This document shows, one piece after another, positions 37,559-39,771 of a stretch of 44,131 bases of DNA. The notes beneath the pieces were generated by a model. That model ran no database searches. It was not told the origin of the DNA and saw nothing but the letters and a program-made list of their open reading frames with translations. The stretch is taken from contig JAMCZC010000035.1 of NCBI GenBank assembly GCA_023485865.1, positions 1 to 44,131 on the forward strand, given 5' to 3'. The stretch's first letter is position 1. Each line of letters starts with the position of its first letter. The DNA is from Patescibacteria group bacterium (GTDB taxonomy: Bacteria; Patescibacteriota; Microgenomatia; Levybacterales; UBA12049). Made by a program: the position numbers and the translations under genes.

Positions 37559-37990
37559 TCAAGTCCTAAGGAATTTAGAATACAAAAGAGAACAAGCAAT
37601 AAAAATAGCGAGCGATATTAGTTCGGATAATAGGCAGTATTGGCAAAAGGACTTTATCTCGAAAAACTGGACAAAAAATAAAACCGCCGAAACAAAAAGT
37701 CCGGAAAGCGCAGTTAAGAAAAGCCCGTGAGCAAACACTTTTCTTTTATCTAAGAAAACGGCGAGGGCAAAAAACATCACCAGTAAATAGAAAAGACTGC
37801 CTAAAAGTGAAATCGGAACACCCAAAATAATTGAATACTGGCTGGTTAAAACGGTTTCGCAGCCGCTTGTTACGGTGCAGGGCGGAAACGCATTTTTGTA
37901 GTGGAGAATTGTTAAATAAGTCGCATCCAAAAGCCCTATGAATGCAAGAATGAGGCAGGCAATGGATAAATTATTTCTTGTTAAGCGCAT
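37559..37990 (-). CDS. Vitamin K epoxide reductase (VKOR) family protein
   Basis: C-x4-C-ETVLTSQYS..GVPISLLG; FCQYCLLS CxxC; four TM segments. Confidence 0.92.
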   Translation of the reverse strand: MRLTRNNLSIACLILAFIGLLDATYLTILHYKNAFPPCTVTSGCETVLTSQYSIILGVPISLLGSLFYLLVMFFALAVFLDKRKVFAHGLFLTALSGLFVSAVLFFVQFFEIKSFCQYCLLSELISLAIFIACSLLYSKFLRT

Positions 37991-38100
37991 CCCGTTAGAA
38001 GCAGATCGCGATCTGCCTAAATTCTCCTTTGTTTATGATTTTAATTTTATTCATAATTCACTCCGATTAAATTCTTTTGCGATCGCGGCTTCTAACGGGA
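37990..38100. mobile_element. 111-bp MITE with 13-bp perfect TIRs and 4-bp target-site duplication
   Basis: tcccgttagaagc (37990-38002) / gcttctaacggga (38088-38100); cgca on both sides (37986-37989, 38101-38104). Confidence 0.85.
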
Positions 38101-38826
38101 CGCATCTTGAATTATTTTTTTGAAGTCATCGTAGCTTCGGGGATTTGCAATTTGCACTCCGTTTACAAAAAAAGTTGGAGTAGCGTTAATGCCGATACTT
38201 GAAGCTTGGTTTTGTGAATCTGCTACATAATTTTTAGTTTCATCGGAAGTCATATCTTTTTGGAATTTATCGGTATCAAGCCCTAATTTTTTGGCGTAAG
38301 CAACAAACGTGTCGGCGGCAGAATCGCTTTGGGCCCAGGAAGCTTGAGTTTCAAAAAGCATGTCGTGCATTTCGAAGAATTTGCCTTGAAGTTTTGCGGC
38401 GTAAGCGGCCTGTGCCGAAATCAGCGCGTTTTTATGAATACTTGTTAAGGGAAAAAACCGGTAAGCAAAATATATTTTATCGCCAAACTCACTCAAAAGT
38501 TGTTTTACAAGCGGGTGATAGGCGGCACAGGCCGGGCACTGGAAGTCGGCGTACTCAACCAGAGTTATTTTTGCTTTTGGATCTCCTTTAGTAATGTCGT
38601 TTTTAGAAACCGGCGGAAGATTAATTGCCGACGAAGATGAAGAGGGGGAAGAACCGGCAAGTTTAATAAGCCCAATAACCGAAAGTCCGACAACTAAAAC
38701 CACCCCTATTATTATGCCCCATTTCTTAAGCAGCGCGTTTCTTTTTTGTGTTTCCGCCTTTTCCTGCCACTCTTGTCTTCGAAGCTCTTTTCTTTCTTTT
38801 TTGGTCAGCTTTTGCTCATCAGCCAT
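38092..38826 (-). CDS. Membrane-anchored DsbA-family thiol-disulfide oxidoreductase
   Basis: TLVEYADFQCPAC, YRFFPL, GINATPTFFVNG. ATG 38826 (MADEQK) preferred because the longer ORF start overlaps a tRNA. Confidence 0.92.
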   Translation of the reverse strand: MADEQKLTKKERKELRRQEWQEKAETQKRNALLKKWGIIIGVVLVVGLSVIGLIKLAGSSPSSSSSAINLPPVSKNDITKGDPKAKITLVEYADFQCPACAAYHPLVKQLLSEFGDKIYFAYRFFPLTSIHKNALISAQAAYAAKLQGKFFEMHDMLFETQASWAQSDSAADTFVAYAKKLGLDTDKFQKDMTSDETKNYVADSQNQASSIGINATPTFFVNGVQIANPRSYDDFKKIIQDASR

Positions 38827-38873
38827 AGAGGATATAATGGCACTTTGCCGGTTAATTTTCAAGAGGGAATTTG

Positions 38874-39050
38874 TCGGAGAGGAGGGAATTGGACCCTCTG
38901 TCTCTGCGTCCTTCACCCCGTTAATTACTTGTCGGAGACCGCGGAATTGAACCGCGTGCCTCTCGGTCCCGAACCGAGCGTTCTACCGATGAACTAGTCT
39001 CCGTAAATTAACGGGGCGGACGCAGCGTGATGCCGGTTCACTACACTCCG
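38874..39050 (-). tRNA. Interrupted Pro-like tRNA (5' half 39018-39050, 3' half 38874-38911) with a ~105-nt insert in the anticodon loop
   Basis: CGGAGTG TA GTGA-ACCGGCA-TCAC G CTGCG TCC[insert]GGA CGCAG AGACA GAGGG-TCCAATT-CCCTC CTCTCCG A. C1-G72 and A73 as in tRNA-Pro. Confidence 0.7.
38932..39003 (-). tRNA. tRNA-Pro(CGG), intact, nested inside the interrupted tRNA
   Basis: CGGAGAC TA GTTC-ATCGGTA-GAAC G CTCGG-TTCGGGA-CCGAG AGGCA CGCGG-TTCAATT-CCGCG GTCTCCG A; all stems pair; CCA not encoded. Confidence 0.95.
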
Positions 39051-39116
39051 AAACCCCAAACAATTTTACCATTAAAATGATAAAATTATAAGTGTCTTAA
39101 GTTTCTTAAGTAACTT

Positions 39117-39671
39117 ATGTTGCCAAAGTACAAATATTTATTAACCTATCGTTACTCTTTGTTAATCCATGATTTAACAGTTGAATTTACTCTTAAATTT
39201 ATGGCGGGGTTCGATTACCGAAGAAGCAGGGAGCAAATGGTTCAGGCAGCCAGATCCGGAAAGCAGAATATAGTAGAAGGAGTAGGCCAGAGTTTAATTT
39301 CGAAAAAAGGAGAGATAAAACTTCTGGGAGTTGCCAATGCTTCCTTGGAAGAACTCCTGTCGGATTATGAAGATTTTTTGCGTCAGCATAGCCTTGAAAT
39401 TTGGCCAAAAACAGATATTAAAATTAGCAATTTTAGAAAAATTGCTTATAGGCTAAGTGTCTTAGCTAATTTAAGTAACCTAGGAGAATTTAAAGAAAAA
39501 CCAAAACTTTCAGAAAATCCCGAAGAAGCTGCAAATTTTCTTTTAACACTCTGCCACCAAGCCACATTTTTACTTTCAAGACAGATTGCAAAAATGGAGG
39601 AGATATTTATAAGAGAAGGCGGTTACAGCGAAAATTTGTTTAAAAAGAGATTAAATAGTAAAATTAAGTAA
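39117..39671 (+). CDS. Four-helix-bundle protein with suffix domain
   Basis: IHDLTVEF..EQMVQAARSGKQNIVEG..KLLGVANASLEELLSDYEDFLRQ..ANFLLTLCHQATFLL..FIREGGYSENL; paralog of 15422-16069. Confidence 0.87.
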   Translation: MLPKYKYLLTYRYSLLIHDLTVEFTLKFMAGFDYRRSREQMVQAARSGKQNIVEGVGQSLISKKGEIKLLGVANASLEELLSDYEDFLRQHSLEIWPKTDIKISNFRKIAYRLSVLANLSNLGEFKEKPKLSENPEEAANFLLTLCHQATFLLSRQIAKMEEIFIREGGYSENLFKKRLNSKIK

Positions 39672-39698: not shown

Positions 39699-39770
39699 GC
39701 CCTTGTAGCTCAACGGATAGAGCAGCGCAGTCCTAACGCGCAGATAGAGGTTCAATTCCCCTCAAGGGTA
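39699..39770 (+). tRNA. tRNA-Arg(CCT)
   Basis: GCCCTTG TA GCTC-AACGGATA-GAGC A GCGCA-GTCCTAA-CGCGC AGAT AGAGG-TTCAATT-CCCCT CAAGGGT A; one mismatch each in the anticodon and T stems. Confidence 0.85.
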
Positions 39771-39771
39771 C

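What the first reader, a model, noticed from the sequence alone, without database searches (positions are those of the whole stretch)
38874..39050. A tRNA inside a tRNA: intact tRNA-Pro(CGG) nested in the anticodon loop of a second Pro-like tRNA
Seen (minus strand): outer 5' half ending CTGCGTCC, then G, CCCCGTTAATT, the complete inner tRNA, AATTAACGGGG, TGAA, and the outer 3' half starting GGACGCAG. The outer anticodon stem extends to 8 bp, followed by a small internal loop and a perfect 11-bp helix carrying the inner cloverleaf. The two tRNAs differ in every arm, so this is not an integration-type att duplication. Inference: (a) a MITE-like cccgtta-ended element carrying a tRNA-Pro that replaces the tRNA it disrupts, (b) a novel intron whose excision yields two tRNAs (joining TCCG+GGA would give a 7-nt loop reading CGG), or (c) a two-piece anticodon-less tRNA mimic left after RNase P/Z release the inner tRNA. 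The outer copy has a T-T acceptor mismatch and a TCC T-loop, so it may be decaying.
Basis: partly seen in the sequence, partly recalled or inferred. Interest (0 to 1): 0.9.

Follow-up and report, generated by a model that had tools for sequence, protein, structure and literature searches.

The report
Replacement tRNA nested inside disrupted tRNA
A tiny hairpin-ended mobile DNA element that carries a working proline tRNA gene sits in the anticodon loop of the resident proline tRNA gene and has taken over its job, and the same trick recurs, up to three levels deep, in many uncultured bacteria.

Summary
On the minus strand an intact tRNA-Pro(CGG) (38931-39003), flanked by perfect 11-bp inverted repeats, lies between the two halves of a second tRNA-Pro(CGG) (39017-39050 and 38874-38911). 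Contigs from two further studies each bridge one junction. The inverted repeat (CCCCGTTA...) belongs to a ~100-nt MITE-like family. About 20 copies occur in this 680-kb genome, and one lies in the window with a true 5-bp target duplication and an empty site in two congeners. It was also found in many phyla. In pattern censuses, 10 of 126 and 79 of 123 family members carried a whole tRNA. These sit almost only inside tRNA genes of the same isoacceptor: in 68 of 71 unique nests at least one flank is tRNA-like. Some nests are three levels deep. The outer gene here carries three lineage-specific changes (U33 to C, an acceptor mismatch, a T-loop change). In relatives only one outer half survives, or the roles of the two tRNA types are reversed. 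Best reading: a DNA-level mobile element that disrupts the resident tRNA gene and supplies its replacement. The outer copy is a decaying pseudogene, not an intron host. The insertion chemistry (no target duplication), how the cargo was captured and what makes the targeting cognate remain unexplained. I found no prior description.

The parts
39017..39050 (-). Outer tRNA-Pro(CGG), 5' half: acceptor 5' strand, D arm, anticodon stem 5' strand, loop TCCG
   Evidence: Read. Part of the ARAGORN tRNA-Pro(cgg) call after in-silico deletion. Matches the 5' halves of intact genes in G030, G032 and G025.
39006..39016 (-). Left arm of the inserted element, CCCCGTTAATT
   Evidence: Perfect 11-bp inverted repeat with 38916-38926. 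Same core as the repeat family.
38931..39003 (-). Inner, intact tRNA-Pro(CGG), the cargo. It is the only Pro(CGG) gene found in the assembly
   Evidence: ARAGORN. Rfam RF00005 at 60.1 bits. Identical at 73 of 73 positions to the gene of G012.
38916..38926 (-). Right arm of the inserted element, AATTAACGGGG
38912..38915 (-). TGAA tail of the element. It is absent from uninterrupted homologs. In the fold its T pairs with G 39017 and GAA is a 3-nt bulge
   Evidence: Comparison with the empty-site homologs L021 and L022. The same TGAA is in the G059 Ala nest, which was found without requiring it. Fold.
38874..38911 (-). Outer tRNA-Pro(CGG), 3' half: loop GGA, anticodon stem 3' strand, variable loop, T arm, acceptor 3' strand, discriminator A
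   Evidence: It carries the A-to-T change that gives the T.T mismatch and the TCC T-loop.
37990..38100 (.). tRNA-less member of the same repeat family (111 nt, arms TCCCGTTAGAA / TTCTAACGGGA). It lies between the stop of the DsbA-like gene and the start codon of the VKOR gene and is flanked by the direct repeat CGCAT
   Evidence: The site is empty in same-genus genomes G001 and G002. Flanking genes identified.
39699..39771 (+). tRNA-Arg(CCT), a conserved neighbour of the tRNA-Pro(CGG) locus in relatives, used here as a synteny anchor

Best explanation
A roughly 105-nt non-autonomous element is inserted in the DNA of the resident tRNA-Pro(CGG) gene, after anticodon position 35. It consists of two 11-bp inverted arms, a complete tRNA-Pro(CGG) gene between them, and a TGAA tail. 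The insertion destroys the resident (outer) gene, and the cargo (inner) gene supplies the same decoding function, so the event is tolerated and the cargo becomes indispensable at once. 

Shown: the anatomy; the arms belong to a mobile, target-duplicating repeat family; the nest recurs with cognate cargo and target in many genomes; nesting can be serial; the outer gene decays. 

Inferred: the inner tRNA is transcribed as part of the old gene's transcript and released by the usual tRNA end-processing enzymes (RNase P, and RNase Z or exonucleases). The 20-bp arm helix may be an RNase III site. The outer halves are by-products. 

Inferred: cognate nests predominate because insertion of tRNA-less copies, or of non-cognate cargo, into a single-copy tRNA gene is lethal, while a redundant cargo elsewhere is soon lost. 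A targeting mechanism is not excluded. 

Unknown: the enzyme, why tRNA-carrying copies lack a target duplication, and how the cargo was captured.
For: (1) Anatomy.

(2) Uninterrupted homologs of the outer gene exist in G030, G032, G025 and others, with the halves directly adjacent.

(3) The arms belong to a family. Three exact CCCCGTTA...TAACGGGG pairs occur in G000, against 0 for the reversed control pattern. One search lists 27 arm pairs, about 20 of them clean short copies, and single arms lie at contig ends. The copies have covarying 4-5 bp direct repeats. The copy at 37990-38100 is absent from G001 and G002, which confirms the CGCAT duplication.

(4) Recurrence among relatives: an Ala(CGC)-in-Ala(CGC) nest with the same arms and TGAA in G059; reversed Pro-in-Pro nests with a different helix in G002 (same genus) and G011; an intact gene plus an orphan 3' half in G012 and G046.

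(5) Census. In genome contigs, 126 matches in 119 or more stretches, 10 of them with a tRNA; a tRNA call across the junction was obtained for 6 of 126, all of them tRNA-carrying, and 0 of 116 tRNA-less. In metagenome contigs, 123 elements, 79 with a tRNA, and 50 of those 79 with an ARAGORN-callable outer tRNA. Only 1 of 44 tRNA-less copies lies in a tRNA-like context, judged by eye.

(6) Cognate pairing. Among 71 unique nests, the flanks best match inner tRNAs of other loci with the same anticodon in 47, the same amino acid in 61, and a different one in 10. Against a null made from tRNA-less flanks, 50 are tRNA-like on both sides, 18 on one side and 3 on neither. The retained anticodon bases 34-35 match the cargo in 14 of 14 Val(TAC), 3 of 3 Val(GAC) and 6 of 13 Val(CAC) nests.

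(7) Serial invasion. L252/L194 hold three Val(TAC) genes nested at the same loop position, and the middle one is itself flanked by arms. L096 is similar for Ala(TGC).

(8) Decay of the outer gene. G000 has three changes at positions where its five nearest intact homologs agree (U33 to C, T-loop, A67 to T), whereas the inner gene is identical to that of G012. The outer T arm of G002 is broken. Second insertions lie in the outer genes of L096 and L098.

(9) The inner gene is the only tRNA-Pro(CGG) found in a 94%-complete assembly.
Against: - The tRNA-carrying insert has no target duplication (flanks TCCG and TGAA), unlike the tRNA-less family members. It may therefore move by a different route.
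- No transposase was identified. There is no DDE_Tnp_1 hit in G000, only two tyrosine recombinases on other contigs. Other transposase families were not tested, and no autonomous copy was seen in the fetched loci.
- Cargo capture for at least 14 isoacceptors is unexplained. 
- Many outer tRNAs still form near-perfect cloverleaves (50 of 79 ARAGORN-callable). That fits recent insertion but also a retained function.
- Survivorship alone may not explain why hardly any tRNA-carrying copy lies outside a tRNA gene (3 of 71).
- There is no RNA evidence for how the transcript is processed.
- The censuses used patterns that fix TGAA, and in the metagenome scan also CTTG.
Confidence: 0.7

Rival explanations
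1. RNA-level intron. The insert, including the inner tRNA, is excised from the precursor and the outer exons are ligated, so one gene yields two functional tRNA-Pro(CGG) molecules.
For: In G000, removing the arms, cargo and TGAA leaves a 7-nt loop (TCCG followed by GGA) that reads CGG. The outer cloverleaf is nearly intact and the junction forms a long helix with a 3-nt bulge. Many outer tRNAs elsewhere are still ARAGORN-callable.
Against: The restored loop would have C at the universally conserved U33, and the acceptor stem has a T.T mismatch. There is no EndA domain in the genome. The structure has one bulge, not a bulge-helix-bulge. The insert has no Rfam intron match. As I read, in most other nests no single contiguous excision restores a 7-nt loop: Ala(CGC) nests have lost all four bases 34-37, and Val and Met nests keep two extra bases. 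The element occurs in either orientation relative to the tRNA. Outer genes carry further insertions or lose one half.
Confidence: 0.05
2. The outer halves and the arm helix are kept because they are useful to the inner gene. They would provide its promoter and leader, a double-stranded processing stem (an RNase III-type site, as around rRNAs), or a two-piece tRNA-like RNA with a separate role. The insertion itself is still a DNA event.
For: The whole region folds far better than shuffles (z -5.06). The 5' outer half lies between any upstream promoter and the inner gene, and the strict scan found no promoter between them. Outer cloverleaves are often well preserved.
Against: The outer halves are lost on one side in 18 of 71 nests and on both in 3 of 71. 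G012 and G046 have neither a 5' half nor arms. G000 has damaging changes. No direct RNA data.
Confidence: 0.12
3. Footprint of integrase-mediated integration and excision at a tRNA gene, or of recombination between two tRNA-Pro alleles, rather than insertion of a small inverted-repeat element.
For: tRNA genes are classic integration sites (recalled knowledge). Orphan 3' halves next to intact genes, as in G012 and G046, resemble displaced att fragments. The genome encodes two tyrosine recombinases.
Against: The arrangement is nested, not tandem. The flanks are an inverted repeat shared with a repeat family. The outer and inner genes differ in all stems. The recombinase genes are on contigs C33 and C40, not on this one. 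The same arms flank cargo tRNAs of many isoacceptors in many genomes.
Confidence: 0.05
4. Assembly artefact: a chimeric join of two tRNA-Pro populations in a metagenome.
For: Logan contigs break inside the inner tRNA, which many organisms in the samples share. The genome is a 41-contig assembly.
Against: Each junction is bridged by contigs with 0-1 differences in three studies: X1, X5 and X6. The same architecture occurs in dozens of independent assemblies.
Confidence: 0.02

Closest known systems
Bacterial MITEs (non-autonomous inverted-repeat elements such as Correia elements or Rickettsia palindromic elements; names recalled, not from a call)
   Same: About 100 nt with terminal inverted repeats, many copies per genome and no ORF. 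The tRNA-less members show a target duplication and presence/absence between congeners.
   Different: A subset carries a complete functional tRNA gene. That subset is found almost only inside a tRNA gene of the same isoacceptor, has no target duplication, and has fixed YYYG and TGAA borders. No cognate transposase is known.
Integrative elements and prophages that integrate into tRNA genes and restore the gene with their own copy of its 3' part (recalled knowledge)
   Same: A tRNA gene is the target, and the element brings the sequence needed to keep the tRNA function.
   Different: Here a whole independent tRNA gene is brought in and the old gene is left split around it (nested). There is no integrase or other gene in the element, which is only about 105 nt. 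The borders are inverted repeats rather than direct att repeats.
Mobile archaeal tRNA introns and split or tri-split tRNAs (Fujishima et al. 2009 and 2010, seen only as cited in passages of PMC10714607)
   Same: Short sequences that move between tRNA genes and sit in the anticodon loop or D loop, with a helix at the exon-intron border.
   Different: Those are removed from the RNA by the splicing endonuclease at bulge-helix-bulge motifs, which restores the host tRNA. Here there is no EndA and no bulge-helix-bulge, the host tRNA is not restorable in most nests, the organism is bacterial by gene content, and the insert encodes a tRNA.
Group I introns in bacterial tRNA anticodon loops (recalled knowledge)
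   Same: An insertion in the anticodon loop of a bacterial tRNA gene.
   Different: The insert is only 105 nt and consists of a helix plus a tRNA. There was no intron family match in Rfam at gathering threshold.

Membership tests
MITE / non-autonomous TIR element | Terminal inverted repeats | tested here: met
   Perfect 11-bp arms at 39016-39006 and 38926-38916. In the censuses, the six positions after the fixed 8 nt were complementary at 4 or more of 6 in 116 of 126 and 113 of 127 matches.
MITE / non-autonomous TIR element | Multiple dispersed copies in the genome | tested here: met
   89 arm-like sites allowing one mismatch, and 27 arm pairs listed, about 20 of them clean short copies, across many contigs of G000.
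MITE / non-autonomous TIR element | Target-site duplication and empty sites in relatives | tested here: inconclusive
   Met for the tRNA-less copy at 37990-38100, which has a CGCAT repeat and an empty site in G001 and G002, and for other G000 copies. Not met for the tRNA-carrying insert: flanks TCCG and TGAA, no duplication, although empty-site homologs exist in G030 and G032.
MITE / non-autonomous TIR element | A related autonomous element or transposase with the same ends | tested here: inconclusive
   No DDE_Tnp_1 in G000. No long copy with matching ends that is not simply two short copies, in L035-L153 and G000. Other transposase families were not searched.
Archaeal-type (bulge-helix-bulge) tRNA intron | Two 3-nt bulges separated by a 4-bp helix at the exon-intron borders | tested here: not met
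   The fold has one 3-nt bulge (GAA) between an 8-bp and a 12-bp helix.
Archaeal-type (bulge-helix-bulge) tRNA intron | Splicing endonuclease (EndA) in the genome | tested here: not met
   PF01974 has 0 matches in G000 (94% complete), while the control search found it in 4 archaeal genomes.
Archaeal-type (bulge-helix-bulge) tRNA intron | Excision restores a functional host tRNA | tested here: inconclusive
   In G000 a 7-nt CGG loop is restorable, but with C33 and an acceptor mismatch. In most other nests it is not restorable by one excision (my reading). No RNA data.
Group I intron in a tRNA anticodon loop | Conserved catalytic core of about 200 nt or more | tested here: not met
   The insert is 105 nt, of which 73 nt are a tRNA. 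Rfam gave only two tRNA matches in the window.
Integrase att-site duplication at a tRNA gene | Direct repeat of part of the tRNA at both ends of an integrated element that encodes an integrase | tested here: not met
   The arrangement is nested and the halves differ from the inner gene in all stems. The insert has no ORF. Phage_integrase hits are on C33 and C40 only.

The most novel reading that the evidence does not exclude
The cognate match would be mechanistic, not just survivorship. These hairpin elements would be tRNA replacement cassettes whose insertion is directed to the loop of the gene for the same isoacceptor. One possible route is an enzyme acting on single-stranded, cloverleaf-folded DNA at a strand-specific TG or CG in a loop, helped by likeness between cargo and target. 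Communities of uncultured bacteria would then continually overwrite their tRNA genes with foreign alleles, leaving Russian-doll fossils. Such turnover could be driven by selfish 'disrupt and replace' addiction, or by selection to escape tRNA-targeting nucleases. The roughly 100-nt tRNA-less copies found across phyla could be decayed descendants of tRNA-carrying ones, a bacterial analogue of tRNA-derived SINEs.
Probability: 0.25. Interest if true: 0.95.

Novelty: new variant of a known kind. Interest (0 to 1): 0.85.

Why it matters
If this is right, it is a new way for an essential RNA gene to be replaced. A gene-less mobile hairpin of about 100 nt breaks a single-copy tRNA gene and brings its substitute in the same step, which makes the element impossible to lose.

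It would explain orphan tRNA halves and odd tRNA loci in genomes of uncultured bacteria. It also warns annotators that standard tRNA finders see only the inner gene.

It gives a directly testable case of horizontal tRNA-allele turnover. The same tRNA variant is cargo in one genome and wreck in another, and up to three generations are stacked at one locus.

The carrier family itself is of interest. It is spread over many phyla, and in this genome it sits exactly at start codons and regenerates them.

The unexplained points are concrete open questions: the lack of a target duplication, the strand-specific TG or CG loop target, cargo capture, and cognate specificity.

Tried and rejected
- **ARAGORN intron mode.** With introns allowed (0-3000 or 0-200 nt, lowered thresholds), it did not call the outer tRNA. 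At the lowest threshold it gave only a spurious Val call on the other strand.
- **Class-level sample.** In 401 genomes the exact pattern with TGAA matched only G000 (1 of 401). The sample did not include G059, so this says little about distribution.
- **Autonomous copies.** I looked for long pairs of matching arms (300-4000 nt) in L035-L153 and G000. The 8 candidates are explained by neighbouring short copies.
- **Cassette-array idea.** Arms abutting as a palindromic recombination site occurred at only 4 places in about 240 loci. I dropped it as the main model.
- **tRNA vestiges in tRNA-less interiors.** ARAGORN at relaxed thresholds gave 0 of 159 hits and 0 in shuffles. The option may not have loosened the search enough, so this does not test the SINE-like idea.
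- **Phages as carriers.** There were only 2 matches in viral contigs, and I did not follow them up.
- **RNA evidence.** Metatranscriptome run X14 gave only contigs of relatives (88% alike, or with a different join). It showed nothing about processing of this locus.
- **Uncovered positions.** In X5, positions 38904-38937 had no cover. X6 covered only 12 of 30 bins.
- **Promoter scan.** The strict scan found no promoter upstream of the outer gene. Its only hit (38862-38834) lies downstream, before the DsbA-like gene.
- **Insertion chemistry.** I tried 2-, 4- and 5-bp duplication, circle-junction crossover, IS200/IS605-like, IS91-like and integron-like schemes against the junction sequences. None fits all cases. 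I report only the empirical borders.
- **Literature.** Searches (listings and abstract starts only) and passages of PMC10714607 gave nothing on a tRNA nested in a tRNA in bacteria, nor on this repeat. Supplements were not available. Papers outside the held library were not searched.
Full report
**1. The observation**

The minus strand of the window reads, 5' to 3':
- 5' half of a tRNA, 39050-39017, ending CTGCGTCCG
- arm CCCCGTTAATT, 39016-39006
- TA
- a complete tRNA, 39003-38931
- AAGT
- arm AATTAACGGGG, 38926-38916
- TGAA, 38915-38912
- 3' half of the first tRNA, 38911-38874

ARAGORN and Rfam call only the inner gene, as tRNA-Pro(CGG), at 60.1 bits. ARAGORN's intron mode misses the outer gene. 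I made 437 deletion variants inside a script. ARAGORN called a tRNA across the join in 48 of them. The variant that keeps 39017 and 38911 is called tRNA-Pro(cgg).

The 185-nt region folds as one cloverleaf inside the anticodon arm of another. The outer anticodon stem has 8 bp, followed by a 3-nt GAA bulge and a 12-bp helix. The energy is -81.5 kcal/mol, z -5.06, and 0 of 200 shuffles fold as well. Inner and outer are identical at 50 of 72 positions and differ in all four stems.

Contigs of public runs support both junctions:
- X1, which may be the source: 38700-38985 and 38967-39200, 0 differences.
- X5, another study: 38977-39200, 0 differences.
- X6, a third study: 38899-38984, 1 difference.

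No single contig spans the whole nest. The contigs break in the inner tRNA, which many organisms in those samples share.

**2. The organism**

The genome is 679,932 bases in 41 contigs and 94% complete. Genes around the locus are bacterial: ArgRS, M16 peptidase, NDK, VKOR, a DsbA-like protein, sortase and MreB. Small size and gene content suggest a Patescibacteria-like bacterium. That is my inference; no tool named it.

ARAGORN and Rfam each find the same 28 tRNA genes. The proline genes are GGG on contig C9 and the inner CGG gene. No Pro(UGG) and no second Pro(CGG) were found.

**3. Relatives**

A DNA search of 61 related genomes, ARAGORN on the fetched loci and reading of the flanks give four states of the tRNA-Pro(CGG) locus. 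In many of these genomes the locus lies next to tRNA-Arg(CCT).

- **(a) Uninterrupted genes of the 'outer' type.** These occur in G030, G032, G025 and others. The two halves are directly adjacent, exactly at the join 39017|38911.
- **(b) Uninterrupted genes of the 'inner' type.** These occur in G024, G041, G055 and others.
- **(c) Nests with the roles reversed.** In G002 (same genus) and G011, an intact gene of the G000 'outer' type sits in the anticodon loop of a split gene of the G000 'inner' type. It is held by a different helix (GCCTGCC / GGCAGGC). In G002 the outer T arm is also broken.
- **(d) An intact gene followed 14-24 nt later by an orphan 3' half.** This occurs in G012 and G046, with no 5' half and no arms.

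In G059 an intact tRNA-Ala(CGC) sits in a split tRNA-Ala(CGC). Both have the G3:U70 pair. The arms are CCCCGTTAGAT / ATCTAACGGGG, followed by the same TGAA, again after anticodon position 35.

**4. The arms belong to a mobile repeat family**

In G000 the pattern CCCCGTTA, gap, TAACGGGG has three places, against 0 for the reversed control. Allowing one mismatch finds 89 arm-like sites. One search lists 27 arm pairs, about 20 of them clean copies of 64-114 nt. Single arms lie at several contig ends.

The copies are flanked by direct repeats that covary from copy to copy: TTCAT, CTCAT, CGCAT, TCCAT, ATGAG, ATGAA, ATGGA. These repeats contain a start codon.

One copy lies in the window at 37990-38100, between the stop of the DsbA-like gene and the start codon of the VKOR gene. 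In the same-genus genomes G001 and G002 the flanks are 4 nt apart in the search output. The alignment shows an empty site, consistent with a 5-bp duplication CGCAT. The family is therefore mobile DNA.

**5. Distribution**

The record titles name Patescibacteria groups, Omnitrophota, Planctomycetota, Nitrospirota, Thermodesulfobacteriota and others.

My own arithmetic gives roughly 34 chance matches for uniform base composition. However, the six positions after the fixed 8 nt are complementary at 4 or more of 6 in 116 of 126 matches, so nearly all matches are real elements. A class-level sample of 401 genomes held only G000. Viral contigs held 2 matches.

**6. tRNA cargo and its targets**

In genome contigs, 10 of the 126 elements hold a tRNA: Val, Ala, Arg, Thr or Met. 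A tRNA call across the junction was obtained for 6 of 126 elements, all of them tRNA-carrying, and for 0 of 116 tRNA-less ones. Reading the other four shows D-loop insertions or partial outer genes.

It gave 123 elements, 79 with a tRNA of 14 anticodon types. Of those 79, 50 have an ARAGORN-callable outer tRNA. Of the 44 tRNA-less copies, one lies in a tRNA-like context, judged by eye.

Among 71 unique nests:
- The flanks best match inner tRNAs of other loci with the same anticodon in 47, the same amino acid in 61, and a different one in 10. The 10 are mostly singleton types or D-loop cases.
- Against a null built from the flanks of tRNA-less copies, 50 nests are tRNA-like on both sides, 18 on one side and 3 on neither.
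- The anticodon bases kept in the outer loop match the cargo in 14 of 14 Val(TAC), 3 of 3 Val(GAC) and 6 of 13 Val(CAC) nests.
- Outer sequences are usually closer to the cargo of other loci than to their own cargo. The same tRNA variants therefore serve as cargo in one genome and as wreck in another, as in G000 versus G002 and G011.

**7. Serial nesting**

L252, and the same sequence in L194, hold three tRNA-Val(TAC) genes nested at the same loop position. The innermost is intact, and the middle one is itself flanked by arms. L096 shows the same for Ala(TGC). The cargo of one event becomes the target of the next.

**8. Borders**

tRNA-carrying copies have no target duplication. One border is Y-Y-Y-G (TCCG in G000; CTCG, CTTG, CCTG or CCCG elsewhere). 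The other border is TGAA.

The element can lie in either orientation relative to the tRNAs, but inner and outer genes are always co-oriented. The strand that reads YYYG...TGAA is the one that carries a TG or CG in the anticodon loop or D loop.

Compared with a normal 7-nt loop, the element replaces 2-5 bases. As I read, in most nests no single contiguous excision restores the loop. G000 is an exception: removing the arms, cargo and TGAA leaves TCCG followed by GGA. I could not fit one insertion chemistry to all cases.

**9. State of the outer gene in G000**

The outer gene differs from its five nearest intact homologs at three positions where all five agree:
- U33 to C.
- The second T-loop base, T to C. 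Other intact relatives also have this change.
- A67 to T, which gives the T.T acceptor mismatch.

The inner gene is identical at 73 of 73 positions to the gene of G012.

**10. Reading**

The best-supported explanation is a DNA-level 'disrupt and replace' insertion. A gene-less hairpin element with a tRNA cargo lands in the loop of the cognate resident gene, the cargo takes over, and the outer gene decays.

It is inferred that the inner tRNA is made from the old gene's transcript and released by normal end processing, with the arm helix a possible RNase III site.

Cognate nests would dominate for three reasons. tRNA-less or non-cognate insertions into a single-copy tRNA gene are lethal. A redundant cargo elsewhere is soon lost. 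A nested cargo is essential at once. A real targeting mechanism is not excluded and is my most novel reading.

Points against this reading, or still open:
- There is no target duplication at the nest.
- No transposase was found. There is no DDE_Tnp_1, and the two tyrosine recombinases are on other contigs.
- Cargo capture is unexplained.
- Many outer cloverleaves are still intact.
- There are no RNA data.

**11. Known systems and literature**

The intron reading fails the tests I could run. There is no EndA, no bulge-helix-bulge and no intron family in Rfam.

Searches of the held library found nothing on a tRNA nested in a tRNA in bacteria, nor on this repeat (listings and abstract starts only). 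[quoted passage not shown]

Noticed in passing
G000 contigs, e.g. C38:14520-14597, C9:56824-56901, C20:147-225, C4:5628-5738; window 37990-38100: In this genome the tRNA-less family members sit exactly at start codons. The 5-bp duplication is ATGNN (or its complement NNCAT), and the element's last base rebuilds the ATG. Many copies carry a GGAGG Shine-Dalgarno-like motif near that end. The old start codon then opens a short reading frame (MNPVR...) that stops at the TAA in the right arm a few bases before the rebuilt ATG, which would allow translational coupling.
   Followed up: partly
G000 contig ends: C17:11821, C23:8038, C38:20350, C40:66258: Several contigs end in a single arm of the repeat, so the family probably causes assembly breaks in this genome.
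   Followed up: no
L027:659-872 (G002), L026:497-660 (G011); also L192, L213, L217, L240: A second, unrelated GC-rich hairpin family (CCTGCC...GGCAGG) is also found. It forms the helix of the reversed Pro-in-Pro nests in G002 and G011. As short hairpins of about 20 nt it is inserted in the variable-loop or D/anticodon regions of outer tRNAs elsewhere. Nesting is therefore not tied to one arm sequence.
   Followed up: partly
L252:1330-1640 and L194:1-260; L096:7335-7609: Three-level 'Russian doll' tRNA genes (Val-TAC and Ala-TGC). In L096 the middle gene also has a further insert of about 30 nt in its anticodon loop.
   Followed up: partly
L098, outer T loop: A tRNA-less TCCCGTTAAAT-type copy is inserted in the T loop of an outer tRNA-Thr that already carries a tRNA-bearing copy in its anticodon loop. 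Dead outer genes appear to collect further insertions.
   Followed up: no
window 39117-39671 (+): The 184-aa ORF between the nest and tRNA-Arg(CCT) has a weak, sub-threshold Pfam match to 23S_rRNA_IVP (PF05635, E 2.3e-4, 21.8 bits against a cut-off of 33.8). Proteins of that family are typically encoded in intervening sequences of rRNA genes (recalled).
   Followed up: no
G000:C40:42577-43050 (-) and C40:42358-42431: One of the two tyrosine recombinase genes lies next to tRNA-Ile(TAT). This may be an integrated element at that tRNA.
   Followed up: no
L069, L074, L107, L146; L079, L113, L210: Family members insert into one another (element within element). They occasionally abut as a right arm, 4 nt and a left arm, forming a 26-nt palindrome.
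   Followed up: partly
Read-laying table 5c, run X1: The same sample holds other populations in which a tRNA like the inner one is joined to the GGCGGGCAGG-type helix of the G002 kind, so both nest types coexist in one community.
   Followed up: no
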